DNA from: Candidatus Woesearchaeota archaeon
GTDB lineage: Archaea > Nanobdellota > Nanobdellia > Pacearchaeales > UBA284
Assembly: GCA_964354405.1 (NCBI GenBank)
Contig: CAYGZP010000001.1
Coordinates: 15,634-79,633, forward strand
DNA length: 64,000 bases
Direction of reading: 5' to 3'
Made by a program: the position numbers and the translations under genes. Below the pieces are notes generated by a model, which made no database searches, had not been told where the DNA came from, and was given only the letters and a program-made list of their open reading frames with translations. This document shows positions 3,186 to 22,295 of this stretch, in pieces. The first letter of the stretch is position 1, and each line of letters begins with the position of its first letter.

Positions 3186-3246
3186 ACAAAAATGAAAACT
3201 TTCTTTTTTAAGAAAATTTATAAGTGTATTTCATCTTTATATTTTT

Positions 3247-3513: not shown

Positions 3514-3534
3514 TAAAATTATTGACTCCTCACT

Positions 3535-3650: not shown

Positions 3651-3671
3651 TCTTAAACCATTATAAACATA

Positions 3672-4172: not shown

Positions 4173-4176
4173 TTCT

Positions 4177-5301: not shown

Positions 5302-5346
5302 ACGAAAAGAAAATGTCGCGACCTTTTATAATTTATCTTTTATTTA

Positions 5347-5465: not shown

Positions 5466-5585
5466 AGATTATCTCGTCTTCACAACTTTTTTTGTTGGCA
5501 ACCCAGCTTCTTCTGGCTTTATGAAATAAACTCTTAAAGAGAAAAAACGAAAGATTTATAAACAATTGTTAAATAATATTAACAT

Positions 5586-6095: not shown

Positions 6096-6097
6096 AA

Positions 6098-6511: not shown

Positions 6512-6518
6512 CTAACCT

Positions 6519-6685
6519 TTACCTCATCAAAACAACCCTCTCCGGCTTTAGCAATTCTTTGCCATCTTCAGGTTTCAAGAAAACAAAGTAAGCCCCATTA
6601 GCCAAGCCATAAGTATTAATCTTATTGCCTTTTCCTTTATAAGCAATCTTCCCAGAAACGTCATAAAGATAATAATTTATCCTTT
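6519..6685 (-). pseudogene. orphan fragment of a T9SS-like C-terminal sorting domain (no start codon)
   Basis: Minus-strand translation is ERINYYLYDVSGKIAYKGKGNKINTYGLANGAYFVFLKPEDGKELLKPERVVLMR*. It has no Met and a stop lies upstream. Matches the LYDASGRKI...NGVYFV...KLTLLK tail of 11821..12813. Confidence 0.5.
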
Positions 6686-6795
6686 CTTAAAAAGGTTTTG
6701 AGTTAAAGAAAATTATTAGCTAAATCTTCAACTTTTTGTTGATTATTATTTAACCATTTAAGAAAATTTATAAAGCTTTTATTCTTATTCGTTAA

Positions 6796-7896: not shown

Positions 7897-8935
7897 ACTT
7901 AATCCTTGGAAAATACCTACTTTAACACCTAAAATATATGAATACCTAATTAAGCATTATTCTTTACAACCTATAGATTTTAAATTAAAAAATAATCCCA
8001 TTTTCTTAAGAAGGAATTTAATAGTAGGTCATTATAAATTTTTAGAATGGTTAAAAAAAGCAGAAAAAGGAGAAAAAGTCGCTTTAGTAAGTGGATTTAT
8101 GACGAGTGGTTTTTTGCATTTAGGAAGTTTGGCTGTAATTAAACAAATAGTATATTATCAAAAAAACTACGGTGCTAAAATAATTATTCCAATAGCAGAT
8201 TTAGAAGCTATTTGTGTTAGAAAAACAAAAAAATCTGAAATAAAAAGAATTTTGATAGATTTTTTAGCTCATTTTTTTGCAACTGGTCTTTCTCCAAAAG
8301 ATACTTTAATATATTTACAAACTAAAAATTTAGAAGTATTAAAACAAGCAAGTTTATTTACAGGAAAGATTAGTTTAGAAAATCTAGAAAAAATATATGA
8401 TAGAAAATTAACTCTTGGAGAAATACACTCTTCATTAGTTATGGCTGCTGATATTCTTTATCCTCAATTTTTTAATTATAAAGGAACTTTAATTAATTTA
8501 GGAATAGATGAAATATGTCATTTTTCTCTTGTAAAAGAATTAATTCCTATATTAGGAAAAGAATTTTATATTCCTAGTATAACATACAATAAAATAATTA
8601 CAGGACTAAATGGATCTAAAATGGGCAAAAGCATACCCAAAAATAGCATACTTCTTCTAGATAAACCAAAAATAGCACGATCTAAATTAATAAAATTAAA
8701 AAACAAAAATATAGAATTATTTCAAAACACTGCTTTTAATATTCTTGAATGGTATTGCGAAGATGATTCTATAATTAAGAAAATTTTAAATATTTCTGAT
8801 AAAAAAGAAGCAAATAACTTGGCAATTAATGAAGCTTGTGATGTAGTTCAAAAACTTTTAGAAAAACATCAAAAAAAATATAGAAAAAATCTTCCAATAG
8901 CAAGAAAGATCGTAAAAGAATTAATGAAAGACTAA
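7886..8935 (+). CDS. tyrS: tyrosyl-tRNA synthetase-like class I aaRS (archaeal/eukaryotic type)
   Basis: GFMTSGFLHLGS (HIGH with the second His replaced) and GSKMGKS. Blocks LYPQ...GIDE...TGLNGSKM resemble archaeal/eukaryotic TyrRS. Overlaps the previous gene by 11 nt (operon). Confidence 0.55.
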   Translation: MINKLNPWKIPTLTPKIYEYLIKHYSLQPIDFKLKNNPIFLRRNLIVGHYKFLEWLKKAEKGEKVALVSGFMTSGFLHLGSLAVIKQIVYYQKNYGAKIIIPIADLEAICVRKTKKSEIKRILIDFLAHFFATGLSPKDTLIYLQTKNLEVLKQASLFTGKISLENLEKIYDRKLTLGEIHSSLVMAADILYPQFFNYKGTLINLGIDEICHFSLVKELIPILGKEFYIPSITYNKIITGLNGSKMGKSIPKNSILLLDKPKIARSKLIKLKNKNIELFQNTAFNILEWYCEDDSIIKKILNISDKKEANNLAINEACDVVQKLLEKHQKKYRKNLPIARKIVKELMKD

Positions 8936-8936
8936 G

Positions 8937-9914
8937 ATGAAAAAAACAATAAAATATAAGGCATTAGAATTGGGTAAAGATGGAAAGTTAAGAATTGTAC
9001 AAAAAGAATTATTTACTTCTAAACCATATGCAAAAATGATTTACAGTGGAATTTGTGGAACTGATAAACATGCAATAAATGGGTCTTTGAAATTAGATCT
9101 TCCAATAGTCCTGGGGCATGAAAATGTTGGAATAGTTAACGGAAAAAGAGTTACGTGGTCAACAATTTTACCATGCAAAAAATGCGCCAATTGCTTATGT
9201 GGAATGGAAAACATATGTGAAAAAAATCAATTGTTTGGAATAACAACAAGAAAACCAATGGCAGGTGGTTTTGGTGAATATACCCCTCTGCCCAAAAATA
9301 CAATATTATTTGAGATTCCTGATGATATAGACGATGATGTTGCTGTTTTAATAGAGACTATGGCAAGTACAAAAGCACTAAATAGAGTTAATTTAAATGG
9401 TAAAAAAATATTGATTATAGGTTCTGGTCCAATAGGGATGTTATCTGCAATTCACGCTAAATCTAAAGGTGCCGAAACTATAGGAATTACAGGGTATAAA
9501 GAACAAGTTAATTTAATAAAAGGCATCATTGATGAATTTTATGAAAAAAACATTCCTGTAAAGAAGATAAAAAGTGAATATGACATTGTTATGGATGCTG
9601 GAGGAAATGTTGGTTCACTTGACTATTCTGTTGAAGCGGTAAAACCAAGAGGAATTGTTATAGAAAGTGGATGCATGGTTAAAGATTTCTTCTTTGACAT
9701 TTCAAAATTAGTCAAAAAAGAACTTACAATGATTACGCAACTAGGTTATGTGCCTAAAGATTTCAAATGGGCTATAGAACTAATCAGAAAAAATAAAAAA
9801 ATATTAAAAAAAGTCATAACTCATAAATTTAAAATTACAGAATATGAGAAAGCGGTTGATGTTCTTAAAAATGTAAAACATGGAAAAGTTATGTTTTCTT
9901 TTAAAGAAAACTAA
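8937..9914 (+). CDS. zinc-dependent alcohol dehydrogenase family (MDR) oxidoreductase
   Basis: GICGTDKH and GHENVG catalytic-zinc motifs, structural-zinc Cys cluster CKKCANCLCG, and GSGPIGM Rossmann motif. Confidence 0.7.
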   Translation: MKKTIKYKALELGKDGKLRIVQKELFTSKPYAKMIYSGICGTDKHAINGSLKLDLPIVLGHENVGIVNGKRVTWSTILPCKKCANCLCGMENICEKNQLFGITTRKPMAGGFGEYTPLPKNTILFEIPDDIDDDVAVLIETMASTKALNRVNLNGKKILIIGSGPIGMLSAIHAKSKGAETIGITGYKEQVNLIKGIIDEFYEKNIPVKKIKSEYDIVMDAGGNVGSLDYSVEAVKPRGIVIESGCMVKDFFFDISKLVKKELTMITQLGYVPKDFKWAIELIRKNKKILKKVITHKFKITEYEKAVDVLKNVKHGKVMFSFKEN

Positions 9915-10687
9915 AGCTTATTCTTTTTGAGTATATTTTTTAATTTCTCCTTATTTAAATCTCCTATTTTAATATCCCCTACTTTTTGTTTATAAGTATA
10001 GACTTCTCCTATTGAATTAACAAAACATGAATCCTCAGGCATATCTTTTGCTTTACATGCATTAATGTTTAGATGGGGAAATTTGGACTTTATCTTTAAA
10101 ATTAGAGAATTATACTCCTCATGAGGAATAGAGAATTTTTTCTTGTATCTTTTGGCCTTATTTAGTGGAACAAATTCAAGTAAAAACCATTCATTTATCT
10201 TATAGGTCTTTAATATATCTCCGATATTTTGTATATCTGAAAAATTCAATCGGGTTATTAATGTTTTAATGTCAACTTTTATTCTGAGGTTATTGAATGT
10301 TTTAATTAAATATAATGTTTTGTTGAAGATGTTTCCGCTTTTTCTCATAATAAAACTTTTTTGGTTATTTGAGCTATCTAAAGTCAAACTAACTATATCA
10401 ACATATTTTAATATTTCTTTTGCTTTGTTTTTTGTAATATTCAGTCCAGTTATATGAGCGCTTATAGATAATCCTTTAGACCGAGCATACTTTAAAATCT
10501 CTAGAAAATCCTTGCAATAAGCAGGGTCCCCTCCACTAAGTATAATCCCTTTAAAACCTGCTTTGACAATTTGGGAAATTATAAACTTTTTGAAATTTGT
10601 TGAAACATCCCTATATCTTTTGTCCCAAAAACAAAAATTACAATTTAAAGGACAAGTGTTCCCCATAAGATAATATGCTATTTTCAT
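9911..10687 (-). CDS. radical SAM domain protein
   Basis: CPLNCNFC (Cx3Cx2C) near the N-terminus; GGDP motif; 258 aa. Confidence 0.55.
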   Translation of the reverse strand: MKIAYYLMGNTCPLNCNFCFWDKRYRDVSTNFKKFIISQIVKAGFKGIILSGGDPAYCKDFLEILKYARSKGLSISAHITGLNITKNKAKEILKYVDIVSLTLDSSNNQKSFIMRKSGNIFNKTLYLIKTFNNLRIKVDIKTLITRLNFSDIQNIGDILKTYKINEWFLLEFVPLNKAKRYKKKFSIPHEEYNSLILKIKSKFPHLNINACKAKDMPEDSCFVNSIGEVYTYKQKVGDIKIGDLNKEKLKNILKKNKL

Positions 10688-10722
10688 TTAATCAATAACA
10701 AGAAAAAGCTTTATAAATTTTC

Positions 10723-11703
10723 TTAAAAATTAATTTTCATGGCTTCTTGAGCTTCCTTTAATGTTTGTTTAGCTACTTTTCTTGCTATTTTGCTTGAATC
10801 ATATAAAATCTGTCTTACTTGTTCTCTTTTAGAAGAATAATGGGCTCTTGTTTCTCTAAATAAAGAAAAATGATTGTATAAAATATCTGTTAATTGTCTT
10901 TTACAATCAACACAACCTCTATGACCACTTGAACACTCTAATTTAAGTTGTTGTTTATTTGGATTATAATAATTGTGAAGCATATATACACTACATATTT
11001 CGGGATGTCCAATATCGGCTTTTCTTATTTTTTGGATATCTGTAATCATAGTTGTTACTTTCTTAAGGAGGTTTTCTTTATTTTCTTCTGGAGAAATAAA
11101 ATTCCCTAAACTTTTACTCATTTTCCTTCCATCAGTACCTAATACTTTAGGATTTTCTGTTAAAATTATTTTAGGTTCTGGAAAAACATAATCAAAGAGG
11201 CCATTAAATCTCCTTATGATTTCTCTTGTTAATTCAAGATGAGGTGCTTGATCTTTTCCTACAGGTATGTGGGTTGCTTTGTATAATGCCATATCTGAAG
11301 CTTGTAATATAGGATAACCAAGAATGCCATAACTAGGATTTTTAATTTTTTCATTTACAACTATCTCTTTATATACAGGACACCGTTCTAACCAAGATAC
11401 GGGTGTTATCATAGAAAGCAAAGTATAAAGTCCAGTGTGCTCTGGAACAAGAGATTGCAAGAATATTGTTGATTTATTAGGATCAATTCCCAAAGATAGC
11501 CAATCAATAACCATTTCAAAAATATTTTCTTTTATTTTTGAATAATCTGTTCTATCTGTCATTGCATGAAAATCTGCAACTTCAAAAAAACATTTTTCTC
11601 CTTCATTTTGTAGTTTTAACCAACTATCAACCACCCCTACAATATGACCTAGATGCAACTTTCCAGTAGGTCTCATTCCACTTAATATTACTTTTTTCTC
11701 CAT
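10723..11703 (-). CDS. trpS2: tryptophanyl-tRNA synthetase, bacterial type (second TrpRS)
   Basis: SGMRPTGKLHLGH, GIDPNKSTIFLQSLVPEH, PVGKDQAPHLELTREIIRRFN and KMSKS align closely with bacterial TrpS. 326 aa. Confidence 0.75.
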   Translation of the reverse strand: MEKKVILSGMRPTGKLHLGHIVGVVDSWLKLQNEGEKCFFEVADFHAMTDRTDYSKIKENIFEMVIDWLSLGIDPNKSTIFLQSLVPEHTGLYTLLSMITPVSWLERCPVYKEIVVNEKIKNPSYGILGYPILQASDMALYKATHIPVGKDQAPHLELTREIIRRFNGLFDYVFPEPKIILTENPKVLGTDGRKMSKSLGNFISPEENKENLLKKVTTMITDIQKIRKADIGHPEICSVYMLHNYYNPNKQQLKLECSSGHRGCVDCKRQLTDILYNHFSLFRETRAHYSSKREQVRQILYDSSKIARKVAKQTLKEAQEAMKINF

Positions 11704-11753
11704 ATTTTTTAAAATGACCTTTATTTTAAATATCTTTCTCGAATAGCGGCTTA

Positions 11754-11792
11754 TTAACCCCTCGTCAGTGACAAACCAAAAAGTTTAAATAT
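11754..11792 (+). promoter_or_regulatory. conserved upstream element A, copy 3
   Basis: TTAACCCCTCGTCAGTGACAAACCAAAAAGTTTAAATAT, about 30 nt upstream of the 11821 start. Confidence 0.55.
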
Positions 11793-11820
11793 CTCTTTAT
11801 CTTATAAATCATATCGAAAA

Positions 11821-12813
11821 ATGTCAAATATAATCACATTAGCCCAACTCATAGCCCAACTTCTAAACACAAATCCCCAAGACATGAAGAACACACAATT
11901 CATTCCTCTCAATCCAGTCCAATATGTCATGATAGATGAAAAAAAAGAAGAAAAAATAAGTCCAAGTCTTGCTGCGCCCATGTTTCATGGAAGGGTATGG
12001 AGAGATTTATATGGGGCTGGTGCAGATAGTGCAGATGTAATCATAACAAATAAAAATGGGATTGATACAGTTATGGCAAGAGTTGGAAGGACAGGGACAA
12101 CCAGTTATTACAGTAGAACTGTTCCAGATGGCTGGGGTTTAGTAATAGGAGATATAGTAATAATAAAAGCAAAAGATATTGATGGTGACAGTGCAAAAAC
12201 ATGGAGAAATGTTACAAGTGCAACCGGAGCAAATCTAGTTATTGACTTGTTCACAGAAAATGTATATAATACTCATAAAGGACACTCATTACTTATCAAA
12301 GCAGTTAAGGATGACTTAATTGATAGTGTTGATGCAAAGTGTTGGGTTAAAGGAAAACCAGATACATTGCAAGATAGATTCAGAAGGAATACTTCATTCT
12401 ATAACATTGCTTTCAACGCAGAAAACTTCCCAACAGCTTCAAGGCCAACTTTGGGAGACAGCATTTTTTTCAAGATGACTACAGGTACTTATGCAGCAGA
12501 ATCAAAAGGACTTTATTTAAATCAGTTTATCGACGGTGATACATTCCCTTCATGCTCATTAAGATTACTTGGCGTAACAGAAGAACAATTAGAAAGAAAA
12601 TTAAGAGATAATAGACTTATCATAACACCAAACCCTTCAAAAGGAATGATTGTCTTGCCATCTCAATTCAAAGGATTCTTGTATGATGCTTCAGGAAGAA
12701 AAATTATGGATATAAAAAATGAAAAACTTGATTTGAGAAATTACTCAAACGGAGTTTACTTCGTGACAGACATTGATAACAAACAAAGAGGAAAATTAAC
12801 TTTACTCAAGTAA
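11821..12813 (+). CDS. hypothetical protein with T9SS-type (Por_Secre_tail-like) C-terminal domain
   Basis: C-terminal 65 aa, ITPNPSKGMIVLPSQFKGFLYDASGRKIMDIKNEKLDLRNYSNGVYFVTDIDNKQRGKLTLLK, matches the consensus of bacterial type IX secretion C-terminal sorting domains. No obvious N-terminal signal peptide. Confidence 0.45.
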   Translation: MSNIITLAQLIAQLLNTNPQDMKNTQFIPLNPVQYVMIDEKKEEKISPSLAAPMFHGRVWRDLYGAGADSADVIITNKNGIDTVMARVGRTGTTSYYSRTVPDGWGLVIGDIVIIKAKDIDGDSAKTWRNVTSATGANLVIDLFTENVYNTHKGHSLLIKAVKDDLIDSVDAKCWVKGKPDTLQDRFRRNTSFYNIAFNAENFPTASRPTLGDSIFFKMTTGTYAAESKGLYLNQFIDGDTFPSCSLRLLGVTEEQLERKLRDNRLIITPNPSKGMIVLPSQFKGFLYDASGRKIMDIKNEKLDLRNYSNGVYFVTDIDNKQRGKLTLLK

Positions 12814-12821
12814 TTTATTAT

Positions 12822-15800
12822 TTATTCTTGCACCCAAGTAATATTTGAGGTTAAACCACCAACATAATAAATAGTTCCTGCTTGAAGATTAAAGTTAAGT
12901 TGATCTTCGGGGAAGTCCCTTATAAATTTACATTGTGAAAAGGTACCTAGTAAATAATACTGTTCAATCGGGTCCCATGCCGCAACAACAGAGGTTTCAT
13001 CATTCCCTAATCCCAAACCTAAAGCTATACACAAATCAACCGCCTTCGCCAACCTCGTGTCAAGAGGAAGAGCGATGTAATTGGCCATGCCGTCCTGATT
13101 TCCATATAAATTATAACTAACTCGCTCAGGAAGCTCTCCGACCCACGTGAAATCATCAAAGTCCATTGTCGCAGCGACAAAGTAAGGCGAGTTGTCTGTG
13201 AGAGGGAAAATTCCTGTGACTGTGTATTCTGGAGGCCCTTGAGTGACTGAATCACCAGGAGTGATATAGCCTCCTTGATATTGGTTTGAATAAGCTGTGT
13301 CTTGCATTATCGCCGCCCCCGTCATATAATTATTTCCTTGTTCAGATTGAGTTTCATATCTGTGATCTTCTTCGTAAATTCCATAAATTCCCTTGCCTCT
13401 GTTGAACCATCCTCTCGCCGAGCCCTGTTGATCCTGTCTCATGACATTCCATCTCGCAATATAATCTATAGGAACAGTGCTAAGTAAGAAATCTTTAGTT
13501 GAGTGAATTCCTTCGATTGGAAGGAACAAGAACCAATTGATGCTTGTTTGAGGAGTCTCACCATAACGTTTAGGTTCATTATATATCAGAGGCTGAGTGT
13601 ATTTAACAAAAATATCTGAGCTTTGGTTGCATGCTATAGCATACTCTCCTTCTTCGCACTGGGCATAAGTTATCAGATTATCAGAAGGCTTGGCCAAGTC
13701 ACATCTGACATTATACCATCCCTCGCTCTTTGAAGGCGCAAAACAGCACTGTGGCTCATCTCCTATAACACATAAATCCTCTTTCAAAAACTCTTCTGTG
13801 CAAGGATCATACCATCCCTCGCGATGCACTCCCTGATAATACTGCCAGCACTCTGGCTTGCAAGCTCCTATTCCAAGTTTAACTTTCGCTATGACTTTAA
13901 AAAATTTCAACCTTTCATCAACTCTCTCTTGCCATGAATTCCCCGAGATACCTTGCCCAATCAAAGTGAAATTGCTCAAATTTCTCTGTCCTTGAACCTT
14001 GTCAGCAGCCAAAACATTTGTGTTCAACAACTGATTTCCTGCAGCAGTCTGCCAAGTTAGTATTAATATTTTGTCAGGGATATTCCACGAGACATCTGTA
14101 TCAAGTTTAGGAAGCGCTGAACAATTTGTTATGTTCATTGCACAATCTTCAGGACAATTGCAATAATTCTCGCAACTCTGGCATAATCCATCTCCGCATT
14201 TAGTGCAGCATTCGCTTCCAACAGACGCACACACGTCACAATCATTAGTTGTTCGATAACAATCCATATCGTAAATGAAACTTGTAGTTAATCCTTCACA
14301 ACACTCTTTATAAGAAGGATGCCCTGGAGGAAATATTGCAAATGCCGAGCATAACTGTTCACAGCAATGTCCACAGTCTTCTGGGCAGTTAGTGCAATTC
14401 TCTCCAATGGTTGCATCACAAATACTATCCCCGCACCATTCTACAGGCTCAACTCCGCCTCCACCGCCGCCGCCAGATGTTCTGACATTAAAACAATGCT
14501 CAATATTGCTCATTGTTGTATTCCATTGATCACTTGAGTCATTAGCCCACTGGTTCCAGCATATTATCTTGCCAGCATCTCCTGCTGTATTAATAGTATT
14601 ATTACACCATCCCGAGTTTCCTGCCATATCGCAAGTCGAGACATTAGTCCAAGTTCCCGAATCATTAGTTCTGAAAACTGCTTGGCTCAACTCAACATCA
14701 TCCTCCCAGTAAACATAAACATTGACATTAGTTCCTTGCCTTACACTCCCTCCTGAATTGTCATCATCTTGGCTGTAATTAGGCGCTGAAGTGTCCCCGC
14801 CGCCGGCCTCGCCCATCGGCGCGAAGATGCTGAAGTTGCTGATATTAACATAAACATAATTGCCAGCAGTGCTGACATTGCTTCCATCAATAATGCTCCA
14901 TGTTCCAAACACTGGCGGATCCCCAGAATATTCCCACATTGCTAAAGTGCTTTCATTGACATCGCCGAGCTCGCTTTCATTGTAAGAGATGTTAAGAGTA
15001 ATCCATGGTGAACTAGGAACCCCCAATACACAATTTTGTTGAGTTTCACAATAAGAGTCATTATAAGTGTCACAAGTTGAGTGAGTGCCTTCGCACCATC
15101 CTCCAACATTCCATGAGCAACCCTGCTGTCCAGGACATTCTTCCTCAAAGAAGTTCCCACAGTCTAAAGCCTCCCCCGCACAAAGGAAAGTGCCTGAGAG
15201 ATCTTCAGTTGTGTTGCTTATATTAAGATACTTGCTTATATTTTGATAGCCGTCAGGGTCGGTTGCAGGTGATGTCGCTGATTTCAAGGCAATATTCCAT
15301 GCATTAAAACTGGTTCTCATGTCATCAACGCTCAAATTAGTCACAGAATCATAACCCGAAGCTGGGTCATCAGCATATTCTATATAAAAGTCATAAATCC
15401 CGCTGTTAGTAATCTCATTGTTAGTGAAATCATTGCTGCCGCTCTCTAACAACGCTTCTCCAGGGCTTGCAATATAAATCGCATAATCCACATCATCAAG
15501 AGTATTGCCTTCAACATCACAATTATCCTCATCACTCAAATAGATTCCATAATCTCCTCCTGAAATGTTATTGAATGAGACATTATGCAAACTTCCTGGG
15601 CCACCGCCCCCTCCTGAAGTTGCATCCAGTAAAACATGAACAGTGTTAGCATCCATAACATTTGAAAAGACAACATCACTATCACATAATCTTGCTACAA
15701 CCCCATATTCATTATTCGTAAAATTATTTTCTTCTATTCGGTTGTTCCCATTCACATCATAAACCCCATAATAATTATTGTTTAAGATAGATTCAGAAAC

Positions 15801-18629
15801 ATTCGAGCTTGAAGTGTATTTCATGTAGACTCCTGCAACGCCCTCTTGGTTGTTTGTATCAATGTTGGAATCTTCAATCAAGACTCCTACAACACCTTCA
15901 GCAAGCAGAATTCCATCTTCACTCGAAACATTCCTGAAAGTCAAATCAGAAGGGTCAACATCATAACTGTATCCTACAATAATCTGCCCAGCATCCAAAT
16001 CCTCGACAAGAGTATTAGAAACATTGCAGTAATAATAAACTGGCTTGCCTTCAACCAAGTTACTCGAGTCAATATCACTGGGCTCTGCGCCACCGCCGCC
16101 AGGAGAATAACAATCTGCGCTAATGTCAAATCCATAACCTTTGGCAGTGGTTATAACATTATCTCTGAATATATTTCGTGATTCAGGAGTGTAAGTTTCA
16201 GTGTTTTGAAGATAAATTCCTGTGGCTCCAACTCCTGAAGTTTCTATGTTGTTATTTCGAATATACTTAAAGTCATCCGCAACATAATTTATATGTATTC
16301 CATAACTATAAACCGGGGTGGCGGCTGTTGTAGCATTTCCATAAGTTATGATATTATTATAATCCACATAGGTTGTACTTGGATACTCTAGATAAATCCC
16401 TTTACAGCCCTTGCAATTAGTCGTGATGTTGTTATTGCTAATATTAGTTTGATTACAATATTCTATCCATATCCCGTTGTTCTCGTCATCGCCAGAAGTG
16501 ATTATAGTGTTGTTGAAGAAAGTGTTGTTGATATCACCTTCAGCATTGCAATATACAGTTCCGTCGCGACTTCCTGTTATACTATCTTCAATATAGTTGT
16601 GGGCAAAAAAGTTGTGATCCCCGTCAAACTCAATTTCTGTGATATTGTAAAGACTATTATTCGCAACGATGTCAGAATTACCCGAGAAATAAAGATAGGC
16701 GCCGCCAGTAAAAATATTATCTGTGACTGTATTGTTATTGCATGCCGATCCCGTGCTACAAACTCCCATCACATTTCCAGTAGTAGGAACAACAATATCA
16801 TTATTATCAATTGTATTATGATTTGAACCTTGATAAAAGTTTATCCCTCTCGAGTTACTATTGATGGTGATTATATTGCCTTCGATTGTGCTGTTTTCTA
16901 CATTATTGAAATAAATCGCATTACTGTTAGCCTGGCTAACATTAATCTGTTCTATAACACAATTTCTTATAGTAACATTATCAAAACCCCCAGAATTATC
17001 AATGGCATACCCCGCGCTATTAACACTATAATTGATAGTATTGCCTTGACAATCAATTGTTATGCTGGCATTATTAATAATAAATGCAGTTCCATTGCAC
17101 TGGACATCTTCAACCAAGACAACACTCTCGTTAGCATAATAAGGGCAAGTCATGTTTCCTGTTCCAAGATAAGCAGTGAAGTGTTTAGGATTGAATGAGA
17201 TGTGAGTTCCATTATCAAGGAACTCTAAACCAGAATCTTTCCACGAGCTCAAACATGCAAAATCATCAATACTCCAATCATCACACTGCAAAATTCTCGC
17301 GATAGGCATTGTGCTTATTTTTTCAAGTGTAATTGTTGCGCTCTCAATTTCTATCTCTTGCGAAGGCTCGATCGCAAATATTTCAGTCAACGCGCCCTGT
17401 GATTTCTGCGCGTCTGTTGGTTGGTCTATCTGAATAATAGTTTCTGGAGGAACTGCAATGAAGTTTATCTCAGATTCAGGCAGTGACACAGGATTTTCCA
17501 TTATCACGCCGCCAGTGACTCCTTCTTGTTCAATATTTTCAACTTGAAGGTTATTCTCAACTCGATTTCCAACTTTAACTTTTCCAATTTTTAATTTTAT
17601 TCTCGGCTCATTTGAAGTTATTTCATCTTGGATATTTCCTTCGCTGTCAACAACTTTTATTGTTATTTCAGCAGGCGAGATGGTTACATCTTGTGATTCT
17701 TGCAATAACTCTTGTCCTTGATAAATAAACTTGACAGTCAAAGTATAAGTTCCTGGCTGTTCAGCTCGTAATCCCAAAGCACCCAACTCCAAATTAAAAT
17801 CTTTCTCTTCGCCAAGGTAACTTTCTCCGAAACCGCTGAAACTTTCAAAATATTCTGTTGATGCTTCCAATATATTATCCTTAATCTCAAGTCTGACACT
17901 ATCATCATCAATCTTTTTGTCTTGAACTCGCACACTCCCAACGATTAAATCCGCGCTCTCGCCCTCTCCAAGTTCATAAGAAAATATTTTTTCAGCCGAG
18001 CATGTCGCCTCAATAATCTTGCCATTTGCATTTTCCTCCAATACAGCAAAACCATCCCATATCCCAAATCTTTTAAATAAAGAAATAATAAATCCAGTCA
18101 ATGGATTTTGTGTCTCTTGATTTTCTTCAGCGCCTTCAGTACTAGTACTATTAGTCTCATTATTTTCTTCTGCTGTTTCTCCAACACTTTCAATCTCCTC
18201 TTCGCCATTCTCGCTGTTCACTTCTGCTTGGCCGATATTCAATTTGAAAGAAATTTCGGGATAAACCATATAATGTCCTTCGAAGCCATAACCAAAACCC
18301 TCTCCGCTCAGCTCTTTATCATCAAAATAAAAAGCCCCATGCTGCTCTTCAAGACTCAAGCCACTCGCATCAACAAACTCTTTTAAACTCATTTCTTTAG
18401 TTGCCTCGCCTAGCGTTGCCACAACTCTTGTTGATGAAGGCAACAGCTCCCCTTCTCTAAGCTTTAAGTTCAACATTCCTTTGACAACTTCATTCGTAGC
18501 AAAATCATTTTTCTCGAAGAAAACAGTTCTCCCAGTTATATCAAACTTGACAAATATTAGTAACAATGCTATAACAAAAAGTACAAAAACACTCAAGACT
18601 ATAGTTCTTAGCTTTTCCTCTTTTAACAT
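12822..18629 (-). CDS. giant (1935 aa) membrane-anchored surface protein with parallel beta-helix repeats
   Basis: N-terminal signal/anchor MLKEEKLRTIVLSVFVLFVIALLLIFV. Long runs of N/G/T/I-rich beta-helix (PbH1-like) repeats. Poly-Gly linkers. Cys-rich modules with the repeated CPEDC motif. Confidence 0.7.
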   Translation of the reverse strand: MLKEEKLRTIVLSVFVLFVIALLLIFVKFDITGRTVFFEKNDFATNEVVKGMLNLKLREGELLPSSTRVVATLGEATKEMSLKEFVDASGLSLEEQHGAFYFDDKELSGEGFGYGFEGHYMVYPEISFKLNIGQAEVNSENGEEEIESVGETAEENNETNSTSTEGAEENQETQNPLTGFIISLFKRFGIWDGFAVLEENANGKIIEATCSAEKIFSYELGEGESADLIVGSVRVQDKKIDDDSVRLEIKDNILEASTEYFESFSGFGESYLGEEKDFNLELGALGLRAEQPGTYTLTVKFIYQGQELLQESQDVTISPAEITIKVVDSEGNIQDEITSNEPRIKLKIGKVKVGNRVENNLQVENIEQEGVTGGVIMENPVSLPESEINFIAVPPETIIQIDQPTDAQKSQGALTEIFAIEPSQEIEIESATITLEKISTMPIARILQCDDWSIDDFACLSSWKDSGLEFLDNGTHISFNPKHFTAYLGTGNMTCPYYANESVVLVEDVQCNGTAFIINNASITIDCQGNTINYSVNSAGYAIDNSGGFDNVTIRNCVIEQINVSQANSNAIYFNNVENSTIEGNIITINSNSRGINFYQGSNHNTIDNNDIVVPTTGNVMGVCSTGSACNNNTVTDNIFTGGAYLYFSGNSDIVANNSLYNITEIEFDGDHNFFAHNYIEDSITGSRDGTVYCNAEGDINNTFFNNTIITSGDDENNGIWIEYCNQTNISNNNITTNCKGCKGIYLEYPSTTYVDYNNIITYGNATTAATPVYSYGIHINYVADDFKYIRNNNIETSGVGATGIYLQNTETYTPESRNIFRDNVITTAKGYGFDISADCYSPGGGGAEPSDIDSSNLVEGKPVYYYCNVSNTLVEDLDAGQIIVGYSYDVDPSDLTFRNVSSEDGILLAEGVVGVLIEDSNIDTNNQEGVAGVYMKYTSSSNVSESILNNNYYGVYDVNGNNRIEENNFTNNEYGVVARLCDSDVVFSNVMDANTVHVLLDATSGGGGGPGSLHNVSFNNISGGDYGIYLSDEDNCDVEGNTLDDVDYAIYIASPGEALLESGSNDFTNNEITNSGIYDFYIEYADDPASGYDSVTNLSVDDMRTSFNAWNIALKSATSPATDPDGYQNISKYLNISNTTEDLSGTFLCAGEALDCGNFFEEECPGQQGCSWNVGGWCEGTHSTCDTYNDSYCETQQNCVLGVPSSPWITLNISYNESELGDVNESTLAMWEYSGDPPVFGTWSIIDGSNVSTAGNYVYVNISNFSIFAPMGEAGGGDTSAPNYSQDDDNSGGSVRQGTNVNVYVYWEDDVELSQAVFRTNDSGTWTNVSTCDMAGNSGWCNNTINTAGDAGKIICWNQWANDSSDQWNTTMSNIEHCFNVRTSGGGGGGGVEPVEWCGDSICDATIGENCTNCPEDCGHCCEQLCSAFAIFPPGHPSYKECCEGLTTSFIYDMDCYRTTNDCDVCASVGSECCTKCGDGLCQSCENYCNCPEDCAMNITNCSALPKLDTDVSWNIPDKILILTWQTAAGNQLLNTNVLAADKVQGQRNLSNFTLIGQGISGNSWQERVDERLKFFKVIAKVKLGIGACKPECWQYYQGVHREGWYDPCTEEFLKEDLCVIGDEPQCCFAPSKSEGWYNVRCDLAKPSDNLITYAQCEEGEYAIACNQSSDIFVKYTQPLIYNEPKRYGETPQTSINWFLFLPIEGIHSTKDFLLSTVPIDYIARWNVMRQDQQGSARGWFNRGKGIYGIYEEDHRYETQSEQGNNYMTGAAIMQDTAYSNQYQGGYITPGDSVTQGPPEYTVTGIFPLTDNSPYFVAATMDFDDFTWVGELPERVSYNLYGNQDGMANYIALPLDTRLAKAVDLCIALGLGLGNDETSVVAAWDPIEQYYLLGTFSQCKFIRDFPEDQLNFNLQAGTIYYVGGLTSNITWVQE

Positions 18630-19125: not shown

Positions 19126-20046
19126 TTATGGCGGCAAGATAACTAAAGACTTTGGCAAGGTTTCTCGATACATGTAAGCCAAAGCAATTTCAAAAGGCGC
19201 TGAATGACTTGCAGCTGCTGATAAAGTTTTCTCGCAAGTGATTGTTCTTACAGTTGTAACTCCAGTCAATGCATTGATTGAACCGTAAGGTGGAACAGCT
19301 GATTGTAACGAGCAAGCGAAGCCTTCCTCGGCCTTGATGCTTATCTCAACTTGGTTCTTTTTCAATTTTTCATCCAAGTCCTGTGTTTGTAGTTTAACAC
19401 AATCAAGTGTAGGCAAATAAACTTCGCCCTTTCCTTTATTCTCGATAGTAAATGTAACATATAATTTGTTTCCCTGAATACTTTCAGTTAAGCTAGTGAC
19501 TTGTAATGGAGCATTAGTGTTGCTTCCTGTCAATATTTTCTCTCCAGAAATGCTGCAGATTCCATCGCCCTTGCCAACACAAATATTTGTCTGTACGAGT
19601 GTAGCATATTTATAGCAAGAGTCAAGTTTGATTGTAAAGTTAAACTCGGCAGGCAAATTTCTCAAAGGCGGAGTCGCTTGGGTGGCAAAAGTCAATCTTT
19701 CCTTGCCCCCCTCCTGCATTGGGGTTTTCTTGTTCAATAAATTAACATTCTGCAGATGTAATGTAACTCCTTGTAAATTCTCGCCTATCCCGCTCAAGAA
19801 GAAATGCGCATTTCCAGGAGCGATGTCAAAACCCCCGTTGTTTGCGATATCAACATAGATTGGATATTTCTCTTCTGTAACAAGCTGTGATGGAGGCGCG
19901 TCAGCAACAAAATTCATTGTTAAGGCAGTCGTGTTAAAAACTGGCTTGGTTTCTTTCTGGCATCCTTGCTGCCCCGAAACTAAAAATAATCCTCCAATTA
20001 ACAAAGCTAAAACAATTCCAACAAAAATATTATGTTTCTCTTTCAT
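19126..20046 (-). CDS. secreted hypothetical protein (paralog of 20062..20994)
   Basis: Signal peptide ending in the LVSGQQGC motif shared with the adjacent gene; 306 aa; no known domain. Confidence 0.45.
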   Translation of the reverse strand: MKEKHNIFVGIVLALLIGGLFLVSGQQGCQKETKPVFNTTALTMNFVADAPPSQLVTEEKYPIYVDIANNGGFDIAPGNAHFFLSGIGENLQGVTLHLQNVNLLNKKTPMQEGGKERLTFATQATPPLRNLPAEFNFTIKLDSCYKYATLVQTNICVGKGDGICSISGEKILTGSNTNAPLQVTSLTESIQGNKLYVTFTIENKGKGEVYLPTLDCVKLQTQDLDEKLKKNQVEISIKAEEGFACSLQSAVPPYGSINALTGVTTVRTITCEKTLSAAASHSAPFEIALAYMYRETLPKSLVILPP

Positions 20047-20061
20047 TTTCCTCTTTTTTTA

Positions 20062-20994
20062 TTAAGTCTTTATGGCGAAAGGATATTGTTTTTCTATCGC
20101 CACTCCGTAATCCAAGGCGATGACAAGCGGATATGCTTGTTGTGACTCTCCAGATAAATATACAACACTTGAGCATTTTATAAGCCTTTCGTTTTGCATG
20201 GTTACTTTGCCTCTGATAATTTCGCCGTTTGCAAGGGAGCATTGCAATTGCTGCGGCGAGAGTTGTGCTGCAAAATAAGTTGTATTTTCTTCTGTGAAAT
20301 CAGCCGAGTATATTTTTACTTGCTGTTGTCTTTTCAAAGAGATTTCCAAATCAACTTTATAAGAATCCTGAACTCTATGAATAGATTTGGTTGCGGCAAT
20401 CAACAAAGGTGAGGGTTCTTGGGCAAGAGCTATCTGCTCATAACCCGGAGTTGGAATTGAAACAGTTCCTGTAGCCTGAGAACTTTGCCTGTATCGAACT
20501 GAAACATACATTTTTTGGCTCCATGGCTGCTGCGAGGCAGGCAATCCCGCATAACTGTAAAAACCATCTTCTGGAAAATAAACATCAACAGTCGCAGGAG
20601 TTATGTCATCAACAATTTTCTTTCCAGTAAGGGTAGAAGTTTCTTTCTTGACAACATCTGCTGCTTGGATGCTGAAGAACTTGCATTCGCCATTGTCCTG
20701 GCTCGAGATGCCTCCATATGTATCAGCCACATTATCCAAGATGCACACTTCTCCTGTTTTCGATTTTTGATCATAATTTTCTATATGAACCCCGACATAG
20801 AAACTTTCTCCTTGCTGCAGTGTTCTTCCTGAAGCGAGATAATCAACTCCCTCAAACAGATTGAAATCCAATCCATATTTGCCTGCCTGTGTTTTTCCAC
20901 CTCCGCCCAAGCCAAAACCCTCACAGCCCTGTTGAGCAGACACAAGAAGCAGAATAATTGCTAGAGCTCCGACAACAAAAATATTTTTATTCAT
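20062..20994 (-). CDS. secreted hypothetical protein (paralog)
   Basis: Signal peptide ending LLVSAQQGC; 310 aa. Confidence 0.45.
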   Translation of the reverse strand: MNKNIFVVGALAIILLLVSAQQGCEGFGLGGGGKTQAGKYGLDFNLFEGVDYLASGRTLQQGESFYVGVHIENYDQKSKTGEVCILDNVADTYGGISSQDNGECKFFSIQAADVVKKETSTLTGKKIVDDITPATVDVYFPEDGFYSYAGLPASQQPWSQKMYVSVRYRQSSQATGTVSIPTPGYEQIALAQEPSPLLIAATKSIHRVQDSYKVDLEISLKRQQQVKIYSADFTEENTTYFAAQLSPQQLQCSLANGEIIRGKVTMQNERLIKCSSVVYLSGESQQAYPLVIALDYGVAIEKQYPFAIKT

Positions 20995-21032
20995 CTTTCC
21001 TTTTTCTTTCCTCTTTTCATTTTTTATGGTGA

Positions 21033-22295
21033 TTACGGCGACTTGATTATTCTCGCTGAATAAGTCGAGTAAACAATATATTTAGATTCTAGCACGACAG
21101 GAGTTAAAACACTTGTTCTTGGCGCGCTTGAGACATACAGTTGGCAAGGCCACGAGAATTTGTCATAAGTTGAGTCATACTGGGTTGAGTTTCTCAATGC
21201 TCCGTAACTATAATCCTTAATCTCGAGCTCGTGATCAATCCCTTGGAAACCTTCACATTGTATCATGATATCATCTGTGAATTTCAAGTTCATATAATTC
21301 AATTCTTTAAGTTTTACATCTTCTGCTCTTTTCTTCAAAACTATAGTGAACTCATAATCTTTGCCTTCATTGAATGGCATATCATTATTGCTTGCCATCG
21401 CAATGCTATAAGGCGCATTGAACTGCATCGAGCTTCTCACTAATCCTATCTTTGGCTCTTGTCCAATGTGCACAGGCCATGTCGTCTTGACAGTTACTGG
21501 CCGCTCGAGCTCAACAACAACATAATCAGAATAAAGTTGCTTGTCAGCTGCGTCATATATATCGCCGACACATCTCAGACTCGTGTGTAACTCTTCGCCG
21601 AGCTGCGTTGTTCCGAACACAAACTCATCTCCAAAAGCATAAGTTCCCATATTCTCAACTCTTAACTCTTGTCTTTTGTCTTTTCCCAAGTAGCATTTGG
21701 GGGTTACTTTAAGCTCAGCGAGCTCAGGATTGATTACAGTTATCGATACCCCCAGATTAACGCGGTTTTGGACAATCCTGTTTTCTGAAAAACTTACATC
21801 TACTCTAAGCTCCTCTTGCGCACTCTGAACATCAGGAGCTTCCCAATCAATCAAGAAAGGACAAGGCGGCTTCAAGTAGAAACATGCGCCCCAGTTAGTT
21901 CTCAAGTCATGCCATCCCTTGCCGACAGAATCAAACATTGGAGAAGCGAACTTCAAGTACTCGGAAGTCAATGGAAGTTTCCATAAAAATATTCCTGCCC
22001 ATATCACTCCGATAATAATAACCAAAACAAACAGATAAGTCACTGGCTTTTTGAGCCATTCAGGGAGAATATACCATATGAAAGTTATCAAGTATATCGC
22101 GATAAATCCGACGATAAATCCAAATGTGGCCAATATCAAAGAAGCAAACAATCCCTGGAATCCAATGTTGAATATCGCAAACAAGCTCAAGACAACCCCG
22201 ATTACTGCTCCGATAATGCCCCCTGCCAAGCCTGCTGGCAAAGAAGCTTTGAAAGAATCCTCTACACTTAATGTTTTTGGCTCTTCATCAGGCAT
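21033..22295 (-). CDS. membrane protein with about 4 N-terminal TM helices and a large extracytoplasmic domain
   Basis: 420 aa. Hydrophobic helices in residues 20-110, followed by a Cys-containing soluble domain. Third gene of a minus-strand operon 19126-22295. Confidence 0.45.
   Translation of the reverse strand: MPDEEPKTLSVEDSFKASLPAGLAGGIIGAVIGVVLSLFAIFNIGFQGLFASLILATFGFIVGFIAIYLITFIWYILPEWLKKPVTYLFVLVIIIGVIWAGIFLWKLPLTSEYLKFASPMFDSVGKGWHDLRTNWGACFYLKPPCPFLIDWEAPDVQSAQEELRVDVSFSENRIVQNRVNLGVSITVINPELAELKVTPKCYLGKDKRQELRVENMGTYAFGDEFVFGTTQLGEELHTSLRCVGDIYDAADKQLYSDYVVVELERPVTVKTTWPVHIGQEPKIGLVRSSMQFNAPYSIAMASNNDMPFNEGKDYEFTIVLKKRAEDVKLKELNYMNLKFTDDIMIQCEGFQGIDHELEIKDYSYGALRNSTQYDSTYDKFSWPCQLYVSSAPRTSVLTPVVLESKYIVYSTYSARIIKSP

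What the first reader, a model, noticed from the sequence alone, without database searches (positions are those of the whole stretch)
12822..18629. 1935-aa beta-helix giant surface protein convergent with the CTD-domain gene
The gene is about 5.8 kb and encodes an N-terminally anchored protein made largely of parallel beta-helix (pectate-lyase/NosD-like) repeats, glycine linkers and two Cys-rich CxxCPEDC modules. Such proteins in small-genome archaea are candidates for host adhesion. Here two different giant proteins (this one and the M23 one) lie in one 64-kb window and occupy about 21% of it.
Basis: partly seen in the sequence, partly recalled or inferred. Interest (0 to 1): 0.5.

Follow-up and report, generated by a model that had tools for sequence, protein, structure and literature searches.

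The report
Giant modular archaeal surface stalk protein
This is a real, intact 1935-residue cell-surface protein of a tiny (Pacearchaeota-like) archaeon, of the already known "adhesin-like beta-helix" kind, but its family has two unreported traits: swappable middle and tip segments, and a secreted partner gene that always sits beside it.

Summary
The ORF at 12822-18629 (- strand, 1935 aa) is real and intact. Intact orthologues lie at the same locus in at least five Pacearchaeota/Woesearchaeota MAGs. The beta-helix covers about one third of the protein (aa 490-1143), not most of it. The second Cys motif is CxCPEDC, not CxxCPEDC.

Order of parts: N-terminal hydrophobic helix, three Ig-like sandwiches with an acidic linker, two NosD/Beta_helix blocks, small beta domains, a G7 linker, a 21-Cys module, an FN3-like domain, two "SEGWY" Cys repeats, and a ~135-aa terminal domain with no Pfam or PDB relative. 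N-glycosylation sequons occur at twice the chance rate.

New findings:
- The C-terminal module also exists as stand-alone membrane proteins and as a split gene.
- In all 15 loci with downstream sequence, the next gene encodes a protein with a T9SS-CTD-like tail. This includes the "CTD gene" in the finding's title.
- Two 99.8%-identical strains differ by wholesale replacement of the beta-helix block and of the tip plus the partner's N-domain.
- Orphan tip copies lie downstream in some relatives, but not in this window.

Best reading: an adhesin-like surface stalk with exchangeable recognition parts. The class is known; the family-level features are new. Function is inferred, not shown.

The parts
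12822..18629 (-). Complete ORF, 1935 aa plus stop
   Evidence: Orthologues sit at the same syntenic position.
18546..18623 (-). N-terminal hydrophobic helix (aa 3-28): a signal anchor or a signal peptide. It is followed by the conserved ITGR motif (aa 31-34).
   Evidence: It is the only Kyte-Doolittle peak above 1.6 in the protein. AF2 models a helix at aa 3-26. The same feature is present in all homologues.
17163..18545 (-). N-module (aa 29-489). It holds beta-sandwiches at aa 34-134, 194-320 and 387-489, an acidic disordered linker at aa 137-175 (18105-18221), and a short helix at aa 176-187.
15201..17162 (-). Right-handed parallel beta-helix region (aa 490-1143), made of two blocks separated by G4 (aa 844-847). 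G5 lies at aa 1006-1010. The region holds 27 of the protein's 50 sequons.
   Evidence: Pfam NosD and Beta_helix score above their gathering cut-offs for the whole protein and for each half. Among homologues this is the variable or swapped part.
15006..15200 (-). 8-Cys insert (aa 1144-1208). It is present only in some family members.
   Evidence: The same insert occurs in P0004, P0006 and P0016/L011_803.
14475..15005 (-). Two small sequon-rich beta domains (aa 1209-1385)
   Evidence: BLASTP module map. There are 12 sequons. There is no Pfam hit. No structure was modelled.
14454..14474 (-). G7 linker (aa 1386-1392)
   Evidence: The linker is G7-G12 in the homologues.
14130..14453 (-). Cys-rich module (aa 1393-1500; 21 Cys) with CTNCPEDC (14373-14396) and CNCPEDC (14142-14162)
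   Evidence: There is no Pfam hit, even for the all-repeat protein P0017. AF2 confidence is low here.
13860..14129 (-). FN3-like beta-sandwich (aa ~1501-1590)
13614..13859 (-). Two 'SEGWY' Cys repeats (aa 1591-1672; CKPEC...REGWYDPC and CCF..SEGWY..C)
   Evidence: These are invariant columns in alignments A1 and A2. The same unit is repeated in unrelated bacterial proteins P0042 and P0063.
13230..13613 (-). Middle beta region plus a variable Gly/Tyr/Gln-rich loop (aa 1673-1800)
   Evidence: Alignment A2 shows a length-variable loop. pLDDT is below 35 for model residues 345-402.
12825..13229 (-). Terminal domain (aa 1801-1935). The hypervariable tip is aa 1838-1935 (12825-13118), after the conserved W-V-G-E-L-P-E-R-V motif.
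   Evidence: A profile search finds this domain alone, at the C-termini of other beta-helix proteins, and in bacterial PKD/FG-GAP proteins. There is no Pfam hit and no PDB relative. Tip identity is decoupled from core identity.
11821..12813 (+). Conserved partner gene (330 aa). Its tail at aa ~268-330 (12622-12810) resembles a T9SS type-A CTD.
   Evidence: Por_Secre_tail scores 24.8 bits (cut-off 27) and TIGR04183 scores 20.8 (cut-off 23). It is 42% and 38% identical to the partners in L002 and L004. It is the only one of 64 window ORFs with the tail motif. A partner is present in all 15 loci with downstream sequence.
19126..22295 (-). Three envelope genes syntenic with the giant gene in all orthologous loci. 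One is a 420-aa multi-TM protein. The 310-aa and 306-aa proteins have lipobox-like ..QQGC N-termini. Membership in the system is not shown.
   Evidence: They are 49-77% identical to their counterparts in relatives.

Best explanation
The gene encodes an extracellular, probably N-glycosylated, rod-like surface protein of a Pacearchaeota-type DPANN archaeon.

An N-terminal hydrophobic helix takes it through the Sec pathway and probably holds it in the membrane. Three Ig-like domains and a flexible acidic linker form the proximal stalk. Two right-handed beta-helix blocks form a rigid middle section that can bind, and possibly cut, surface glycans. Gly linkers and disulfide-rich modules lead to a distal FN3 / SEGWY / terminal-domain head.

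The head works together with the product of the adjacent gene, a protein with a T9SS-CTD-like beta-sandwich tail. The beta-helix block, and the last ~100 residues together with the partner's N-domain, are exchanged by recombination between strains. This is the pattern expected for parts that recognise a changing target: a host or partner cell surface, or a surface that viruses exploit.

Shown here: the gene, its modules, their conservation, the partner linkage, and the cassette replacement in relatives. Inferred: surface location, glycosylation, binding function, and physical contact with the partner.
For: Gene and fold assignments:
- The ORF is intact and has intact orthologues.
- The beta-helix scores above Pfam cut-offs.
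- Ig-like and FN3-like folds are modelled.
- There is one N-terminal hydrophobic helix, 50 sequons against 25.9 +/- 4.5 expected, and 62 Cys clustered in modules.

Modularity:
- The C-module occurs as stand-alone TM proteins of 636-660 aa (P0013-15).
- It also occurs as a split gene pair in L011.

Partner linkage:
- A gene encoding a CTD-like tail lies directly 3' of the terminal-domain gene in 15 of 15 distinct loci, in either orientation.
- Only 1 of 64 window ORFs has that tail.

Variation:
- L001 and L006 have 99.8% and 99.1% identical flanks, but an unalignable beta-helix block and an unalignable tip plus partner N-domain.
- Tip identity is 25-50% whatever the core identity (45-76%).
- Core and tip similarity are uncorrelated (r = 0.09). 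Tip and partner similarity correlate with r = 0.52, and 3 of 5000 permutations reached this.
- Orphan tip copies lie after the partner gene in L001/L006 and L020.
- The giant protein diverges faster (45-60% identity) than neighbouring envelope genes (mostly 60-77% identity).

Analogous proteins are interpreted as adhesins or host-wall binders in methanogens and in Nanobdella.
Against:
- A conserved (F/I/L)-T-G-(K/R) motif after the helix could be a cleavage site, which would remove the anchor.
- The window's own partner lacks a clear signal peptide.
- The window has no orphan tip, and no close strain was available, so cassette exchange is shown only in relatives.
- The AF2 models are of moderate quality (pLDDT 63-67) and rest on 9-12 sequences.
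- Tip-partner covariation could simply reflect physical adjacency, and phylogeny was not controlled.
- The pair L008/L004 has similar tips but dissimilar partners.
- No host is known.
Confidence: 0.55

Rival explanations
1. Surface-displayed polysaccharide depolymerase. In this reading the beta-helix blocks are catalytic (lyase or hydrolase, as in pectate lyases and phage tailspikes). The protein would digest host envelope glycans or environmental polymers rather than merely bind them.
For: - The NosD/Beta_helix fold is shared with polysaccharide lyases and tailspikes.
- The Nanobdella authors propose wall degradation for similar proteins.
- The window also encodes a 2536-aa protein with an M23 peptidoglycan-peptidase domain.
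- A relative's locus carries a lytic transglycosylase (SLT_2).
Against: - No hit to any catalytic lyase or hydrolase family.
- The PDB sequence search found nothing.
- No catalytic residues could be identified.
- The beta-helix block is replaced wholesale between near-identical strains. That fits a recognition or antigenic element better than a conserved active site.
Confidence: 0.2
2. A structural component of the archaeon's own envelope, such as an S-layer-associated spacer or sheath protein, with no role in recognising other cells.
For: - The protein is large, sequon-rich and Ig-rich, like archaeal S-layer proteins.
- It sits in conserved synteny with three other envelope genes.
Against: - A separate S_layer_C gene exists in the relative L006.
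- A structural lattice protein is not expected to tolerate replacement of a 566-aa block by an unrelated 237-aa block between strains.
- Nor is it expected to vary from 1493 to 2255 aa among orthologues.
Confidence: 0.12
3. A polymorphic-toxin-like contact-dependent effector. In this reading the variable C-terminal tip is a delivered toxin, and the adjacent gene is its immunity or helper protein, as in CdiA-CT/CdiI and Rhs loci.
For: - A conserved motif (W-x-x-V-G-K/E-V/L-P-E-H/R-V) precedes a variable C-terminus.
- The adjacent gene co-varies with the tip.
- Orphan tip(+partner) copies lie downstream in L001/L006, L020 and probably L022.
- The protein is a long beta-helix protein.
Against: - All tips match one profile at E of about 1e-40, so they share one fold and are not alternative toxin domains.
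- The same domain occurs in tandem in ordinary bacterial PKD/FG-GAP surface proteins.
- There is no toxin family hit.
- Partners are 300-470 aa, mostly carry signal peptides and have a CTD-like tail. They are not small cytoplasmic immunity proteins.
Confidence: 0.05

Closest known systems
Adhesin-like proteins (ALPs) of Methanobrevibacter / Methanosphaera (PMC11532034)
   Same: Both are archaeal, have a single N-terminal TM helix as presumed anchor, have large right-handed beta-helix domains plus Ig-like stalk domains, are unusually long, and have an adhesive role that is presumed rather than shown.
   Different: - The domain order differs. ALPs mostly have the beta-helix first and Ig repeats after. 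Here the order is Ig-like stalk, then beta-helix, then the Cys-rich / FN3 / terminal head.
- There is no sequence similarity to ALP 'archaeal big domains', and no Big_* Pfam hits.
- The conserved N-module, the C-module and the obligatory partner gene were not seen in the passages of the ALP paper that were read.
Pectin-lyase-like surface proteins of the DPANN archaeon Nanobdella aerobiophila (MJ1_0451/0701/0776; bioRxiv 10.1101/2023.10.27.564410)
   Same: Both are DPANN ectosymbiont-type organisms. The Nanobdella proteins are 908-1320 aa with 36-52 N-glycosylation sites, Ig-like folds and a parallel beta-helix, and are proposed to act on the host wall.
   Different: - They come from a different phylum-level lineage, and homology was not tested (their sequences are not in hand).
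- This protein is longer.
- It carries the Cys-rich / SEGWY / terminal-domain head.
- It has the linked CTD-tail partner.
Phage tail fibre / tailspike tips with adjacent co-varying tip or chaperone genes (e.g. T4 gp37-gp38, Mu/P2 fibre-Tfa cassettes; from general knowledge)
   Same: Both combine a long rod with a C-terminal receptor-recognition end and an adjacent gene, and the two are exchanged together by recombination at a conserved junction. Beta-helix modules also serve as glycan-recognition elements in phage.
   Different: This is a cellular, membrane-anchored protein, with no sequence or detected fold relationship to the phage proteins. Contact between the tip and the partner is not shown.
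T9SS type-A C-terminal sorting domain (Pfam PF18962 / TIGR04183) of Bacteroidota, relevant to the partner protein
   Same: The partner has a ~60-70-aa C-terminal tail with the P-N-P, Y-D/N-x-x-G-R/K and G-x-Y-F motifs and a basic end. Nine partner proteins were scanned (eight complete, plus the truncated L007 fragment). Six give consistent weak Pfam hits at their extreme C-terminus, and three give none above 0.05 (L007 scanned directly; L009 and L010 per the precomputed Pfam on record).
   Different: - All hits are below the curated cut-offs (19-25 vs 27 bits).
- The organism is an archaeon without an outer membrane, and no T9SS machinery is expected.
- The tail therefore cannot act as a T9SS export signal here.
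CdiA-CT/CdiI and Rhs polymorphic toxin loci
   Same: Both show a conserved demarcation motif before a variable C-terminus, an adjacent co-varying gene, and displaced 'orphan' C-terminal copies downstream.
   Different: The tips share one fold, no toxin domain is detected, and the partner is large and secreted.

Membership tests
Right-handed parallel beta-helix repeat proteins (Pfam Beta_helix PF13229 / NosD PF05048 clan) | Profile match above the curated gathering score | tested here: met
   For the whole protein, NosD scores 60.9 bits (cut-off 23.6) and Beta_helix 53 (cut-off 25.9). Each half passes alone: 39.6/35.2 and 44.1/54.7 bits.
NosD proper (nitrous-oxide reductase maturation protein, TIGR04247) | Full-length equivalog-level match, and a nos gene context | tested here: not met
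   The score is 28.5 bits against a cut-off of 300. No nos genes are among the neighbours. The database name 'NosD domain-containing' reflects fold only.
Pectate/polysaccharide lyases | Match to a catalytic lyase family and conserved catalytic / Ca-binding residues | tested here: inconclusive
   There is no Pfam lyase family hit and no PDB sequence hit. The beta-helix region was not modelled, so active-site geometry was not examined.
Archaeal adhesin-like proteins (ALPs) | Single terminal TM helix as membrane anchor | tested here: met
   There is one hydrophobic helix at aa 3-28. Cleavage versus anchoring is undecided.
Archaeal adhesin-like proteins (ALPs) | Right-handed beta-helix plus Ig-like stalk repeats | tested here: met
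   beta-helix; Ig/FN3-like folds. The domain order differs from typical ALPs.
Archaeal adhesin-like proteins (ALPs) | Demonstrated binding to other cells | not testable with these tools
   This requires binding assays or imaging.
T9SS type-A CTD cargo (partner gene 11821-12813) | PF18962 / TIGR04183 match at or above the curated cut-off | tested here: not met
   The window's partner scores 24.8 bits (cut-off 27) and 20.8 (cut-off 23). Partners in other loci score 19.3-23.5 bits.
T9SS type-A CTD cargo (partner gene 11821-12813) | Presence of T9SS machinery and an outer membrane | not tested
   Only 64 kb is in hand. From general knowledge, archaea lack an outer membrane and a T9SS.
Polymorphic toxin systems (CdiA/Rhs type) | C-terminal domains of differing toxin folds after a conserved motif | tested here: not met
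   All tips match one terminal-domain profile at 1e-39 to 1e-53. There are no toxin family hits.
Polymorphic toxin systems (CdiA/Rhs type) | Small cognate immunity gene immediately downstream, and orphan CT/immunity pairs | tested here: inconclusive
   An adjacent co-varying gene and orphan tips exist in relatives. However, the adjacent protein is 300-470 aa and usually has a signal peptide. There are no orphans in the window.
Fibronectin type III fold (aa ~1501-1590) | Structural match to FN3 domains | tested here: met

The most novel reading that the evidence does not exclude
The family may be a two-component, cassette-switchable recognition apparatus of DPANN archaea.

In this reading a membrane-anchored stalk, either giant or short, carries a ~100-residue variable tip that docks a cognate secreted protein. 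That protein uses a T9SS-CTD-like beta-sandwich domain, re-purposed in a cell that has no outer membrane.

New tip-plus-partner pairs would be installed by recombination at the conserved W-x-x-V-G-K/E-V/L-P-E motif. This would leave orphan tip(+partner) copies behind, much as with phage tail-fibre tips or CdiA-CT/CdiI modules, and would set or change which host cell the symbiont can attach to.
Probability: 0.25. Interest if true: 0.7.

Novelty: new variant of a known kind. Interest (0 to 1): 0.45.

Why it matters
How DPANN archaea recognise and hold on to their hosts is largely unknown, and no host is known for Pacearchaeota.

This locus gives a concrete, testable candidate. It consists of a surface stalk, a recognisable variable tip, and an obligatory partner gene found across Pacearchaeota/Woesearchaeota-type genomes. 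The strain-level cassette replacement could be tracked in metagenomes and compared with co-occurring hosts.

The work also defines several unannotated domains: the N-module, the SEGWY repeat and the terminal domain. The terminal domain recurs in hundreds of archaeal and bacterial surface proteins. The work further shows a T9SS-CTD-like domain in use outside any T9SS context.

If the protein is only a generic surface adhesin, it adds one more member to a known class.

Tried and rejected
Look-ups and searches that led nowhere:
- Exact look-up of the window protein on contigs: not on record, both as a window reference and as P0001. The source contig's wider context could not be read.
- The AFDB fold library was unavailable.
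- PDB sequence searches with the whole protein and with the C-module profile gave no meaningful hits.
- The N-module search added only one homologue.
- The genome and metagenome scans together added about 10 new distinct loci, most of them short fragments.
- Literature searches for DPANN plus T9SS CTD found nothing relevant.

Ideas tested and rejected:
- A chimeric contig at the GC shift (~12 kb). Rejected for the giant/partner junction, because that gene pair is conserved in distant lineages. A join further left is not excluded.
- A genomic island at a tRNA. There is no tRNA near the boundary.
- DNA-level repeats or internal duplications in the gene. None were found.
- Paralogues or silent cassettes of any module elsewhere in the window. 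None were found.
- Shared modules between the two giant proteins. None were found.
- Class-III (prepilin-type) signal peptides, suggested by the conserved adjacent A24 peptidase. Neither the giant nor the two small upstream proteins has a [KR]-[GA] site before the hydrophobic stretch. I treat the A24 adjacency as lineage synteny.
- A frameshifted signal peptide upstream of the window's partner gene. No such reading frame exists.
Full report
**1. Observation**

An ATG-initiated ORF of 1935 codons occupies 12822-18629 on the minus strand. An identical protein (P0001) is on record from a 420-kb NCBI contig. Eight homologues were found: P0002-P0008 at 37-60% identity and the distant P0009 at 25%. 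Several are named [quoted passage not shown].

- One N-terminal hydrophobic segment is present, and no other.
- Pfam NosD and Beta_helix both score above their gathering cut-offs, and each half of aa 490-1143 passes alone.
- Three poly-Gly runs are present.
- The motifs are CTNCPEDC (aa 1412) and CNCPEDC (aa 1490).
- The stop codon lies 8 bp from the stop of the convergent 330-aa gene.
- The two giant ORFs cover 20.97% of the window.

Two corrections apply. The beta-helix makes up about 34% of the protein, not most of it. The second motif is CxCPEDC.

**2. Organism and context**

The window carries archaeal markers: TFIIB, SRP54, ribosomal S10, a DHH/GAN-type protein and an A24 prepilin peptidase. 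Related loci come from MAGs labelled Pacearchaeota or Woesearchaeota.

The upstream gene order is the same in five orthologous loci (L001/L006, L007, L008, L010), though L010's short contig shows only the part from the 310-aa gene onward. It runs HIT, A24 peptidase, a 420-aa multi-TM protein, 310-aa and 306-aa proteins with ..QQGC lipobox-like N-termini, S10 on the opposite strand, then the giant gene.

GC content is 24-33% left of ~11.8 kb and 37-41% to the right. The giant gene (39.6%) matches the right side, and the partner gene is intermediate (34.8%).

**3. Anatomy** (aa numbering; nucleotide map)

| Region (aa) | Feature | Evidence |
|---|---|---|
| 3-28 | Hydrophobic helix, followed by a conserved (F/I/L)-T-G-(K/R) motif | |
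| 137-175 | Acidic disordered linker, 40-200 aa long in homologues | |
| 490-1143 | Two beta-helix blocks holding 27 of the 50 sequons | |
| 1144-1208 | 8-Cys insert, present in only some members | |
| 1209-1385 | Two small sequon-rich domains | |
| 1386-1392 | G7 linker | |
| 1393-1500 | 21-Cys module | |
| 1591-1672 | Two "SEGWY" Cys repeats | |
| 1673-1800 | Beta region with a variable loop | |
| 1801-1935 | Terminal domain | |

Nothing beyond the beta-helix has a Pfam family or a PDB sequence relative. The last ~330 aa have no structural match, with the caveat that the model's mean pLDDT is 67. The protein has 50 N-X-S/T sequons against 25.9 +/- 4.5 expected from shuffling.

**4. The family is modular**

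BLASTP maps show a conserved N-module and a conserved C-module around a variable middle. Orthologues range from 1493 to 2255 aa because beta-helix blocks are added, lost or replaced.

The C-module also exists in other forms:
- As stand-alone proteins of 636-660 aa with their own N-terminal helix (P0013-P0015), next to ribosomal L15e genes in other DPANN lineages.
- As a split arrangement in L011. There, an 803-aa beta-helix plus Cys-module gene is followed by a 412-aa gene encoding TM, FN3, SEGWY and terminal domain.
- One MAG (GCA_964396475.1) has both a giant version and a stand-alone version.

An exhaustive profile search found 585 proteins at E <= 1e-3 and resolved sub-domains. The SEGWY unit is repeated in bacterial proteins. 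The terminal domain occurs in three further settings: alone (130-170 aa), at the C-termini of other beta-helix or Laminin_G_3 proteins, and in tandem near the N-termini of bacterial PKD/FG-GAP proteins.

**5. The convergent "CTD gene" is a conserved partner**

The 330-aa product is 42% and 38% identical to the genes that sit convergent to the stand-alone C-module genes in L002 and L004.

In every locus where sequence downstream of the terminal domain is available, the very next gene encodes a partner of the same kind. Most have a signal peptide, and nearly all (14 of the 15; L007's partner is truncated before its C-terminus) end in the same ~65-aa tail. The tail carries P-N-P, Y-D/N-x-x-G-R/K and G-x-Y-F motifs and a basic terminus. 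There are 15 such distinct loci: window, L010, L001/L006, L007, L008, L002/3, L004/5, L009, L011, L012, L015, L019, L020, L021 and L022. The gene's orientation varies among them.

Nine partner proteins were scanned (eight complete, plus the truncated L007 fragment). Six hit Pfam Por_Secre_tail at their extreme C-terminus with 19-25 bits, always below the cut-off of 27. The other three (L007 scanned directly; L009 and L010 by the precomputed Pfam on record) give no Pfam hit.

In the window, only 1 of 64 ORFs of at least 100 aa carries this tail. The pairing survives inversion, gene fusion or fission, and change of every other neighbour. I take this as strong evidence of functional coupling. It also shows that the giant/partner junction at the GC shift is not an assembly artefact.

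One caveat: the window's partner has no clear signal peptide, and no alternative upstream reading frame supplies one.

**6. Variation**

L001 and L006 are the same locus in two MAGs. Their flanks are 99.8% and 99.1% identical at the nucleotide level. Two segments do not align at all:
- The beta-helix block: 1.7 kb in one strain against 0.7 kb in the other.
- The last ~60-90 codons of the giant gene together with the first ~150-220 codons of the partner gene.

A 68-bp repeat (98.5% identical), encoding GHPYFISATQDWDRWTYVGKVPE, lies in the giant gene and again just after the partner's stop codon. At the second site it opens a truncated orphan tip.

In L020 a complete orphan terminal domain, 75% identical at the nucleotide level and preceded by stop codons, follows the partner gene. 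In L022 a tip that starts inside the domain has its own partner.

Across the family, tip identity (the last ~98 aa after the VPExV motif) stays at 25-50% whether core identity is 30% or 76%. Similarity matrices give:

| Comparison | Loci | r | Permutation result |
|---|---|---|---|
| Core vs tip | 9 | 0.09 | not significant |
| Tip vs partner | 13 | 0.52 | 3 of 5000 permutations reached this |

Phylogeny was not controlled in this test.

For this window in particular, both the tip and the partner resemble those of the distant L002 locus most closely. The core instead groups with the Pacearchaeota giants.

The giant protein is 45-60% identical to its orthologues. The neighbouring envelope genes are mostly 60-77% identical (49-60% to the most distant locus, L008) and S10 is 80-92%.

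The window itself has no orphan tips and no paralogues of any module. No close strain of it was found.

**7. Mechanism proposed**

Shown:
- A real, conserved, modular gene.
- Beta-helix, Ig-like and FN3-like content.
- One N-terminal hydrophobic helix.
- Sequon and Cys enrichment.
- Obligatory linkage to the partner gene.
- Cassette replacement in relatives.

Inferred:
- The protein is exported and held by its N-terminal helix.
- It is N-glycosylated.
- It projects as a rod, roughly 40-60 nm by my own rough estimate from domain counts.
- It uses the beta-helix blocks and the distal head for recognition of another surface.
- The head cooperates with, and perhaps docks, the CTD-tailed partner.
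- The exchangeable parts are the specificity determinants.

This matches how similar proteins are read in methanogens (ALPs, PMC11532034) and in Nanobdella aerobiophila.

**8. Rivals**

Three alternatives were considered: a catalytic depolymerase, a purely structural envelope component, and a polymorphic-toxin-like effector. The evidence for and against each is given in the rival explanations section.

The toxin reading is attractive because of the orphan modules. It is disfavoured because all tips share one fold-level profile, because the same domain occurs in ordinary bacterial surface proteins, and because the partners are large and mostly secreted.

**9. Novelty and score**

Large beta-helix surface proteins in DPANN and other archaea are already described, so the finding as first stated is a new member of a known kind.

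The family-level traits found here justify "new variant of a known kind":
- Unannotated N- and C-modules.
- A terminal domain that is widespread in archaeal and bacterial surface proteins.
- A T9SS-CTD-like partner conserved next to it in archaea.
- Strain-level cassette replacement with orphan tips.

These traits did not turn up in the literature I could search. Function is untested and the window itself shows no cassette array, so interest is moderate (0.45).

Noticed in passing
window 1-11800: This block has 24-33% GC against 37-41% for the rest of the window. It holds three class-I Trp/Tyr-type tRNA-synthetase paralogues (6796-7896, 7886-8935, 10723-11703), a radical-SAM/SPASM protein, a Zn-ADH, a nucleotidyltransferase and two small TPR/SNAP-like proteins. 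Relatives have HisRS/ParA at this position instead. There is no tRNA at the boundary. A similar TPR/SNAP gene follows the partner gene in L009.
   Followed up: partly
window 33353-40963 (-): A second giant ORF of 2536 aa carries an M23 peptidoglycan-endopeptidase domain at aa ~1895-2005. This is notable in an archaeon. It has only 11 sequons, 62 Cys, and no similarity to the beta-helix giant. The adjacent 618-aa ORF (40977-42833) has no family hit.
   Followed up: partly
window 19126-22295 (-) and 22521-23399 (+): Three envelope proteins lie here: a 420-aa multi-TM protein, and 310-aa and 306-aa proteins with lipobox-like ..SAQQGC / ..SGQQGC N-termini and no Pfam family. Together with an A24 prepilin peptidase, they keep the same order next to the giant gene in all orthologous loci. 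Whether they form a complex with the giant protein is unknown.
   Followed up: partly
window 18522-18539 (aa 31-36), plus aa 175-180 and 371-379 of the giant: A (F/I/L)-T-G-(K/R)-x-(I/V) motif follows the N-terminal helix in every homologue. Stand-alone versions have (I/F)-L-D-G-(K/R/S)-x-x-A-P-P instead. Similar 'LTGF' and 'VTGGVI' strings recur after the acidic linker and before the third sandwich, and P0009 has 'SITGNAI..RLTGRAV'. This could be a processing or sorting signal; it remains unexplained.
   Followed up: no
L011 1361-6264: This is a split version of the giant protein. An 803-aa signal-peptide, beta-helix and Cys-module gene is followed by a 412-aa gene for TM, FN3, SEGWY and terminal domain. 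A convergent 314-aa partner comes next. Its N-domain matches the L006-type partners and its tail matches the L010-type, which unifies the partner family.
   Followed up: yes
L020 1355-1718; L001 15105-15386; L006 14016-14297; L022 78-431: Orphan copies of the terminal domain lie downstream of partner genes. The copy in L020 is complete, and those in L001/L006 are truncated. The L022 copy starts inside the domain and has its own partner.
   Followed up: yes
L015 (JBBILZ010000057.1, binned as candidate division WOR-3 bacterium): A truncated C-module gene and a CTD-tail partner nearly identical in its tail to that of L001 sit beside ATP-synthase subunit genes, on a contig assigned to a bacterium. 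This could be misbinning, a chimera or horizontal transfer.
   Followed up: no
P0042, P0063 (bacterial-looking proteins); P0073, P0075, P0095, P0122: The 'C..IGSRSEGWY..C..LI.W..C' unit forms long tandem arrays in some proteins. The terminal domain occurs in tandem near the N-terminus of PKD/FG-GAP proteins, one of which carries T9SS-type C-terminal signals of its own (CHU_C, FlgD_ig). Neither unit has a Pfam family.
   Followed up: partly
window 11821-11980: The window's partner protein begins MSNIITLAQLIAQLLNTNPQD... It has no basic n-region and no long hydrophobic stretch, unlike most of the partner proteins whose N-termini are complete, which have clear signal peptides. No alternative reading frame upstream supplies one.
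   Followed up: partly
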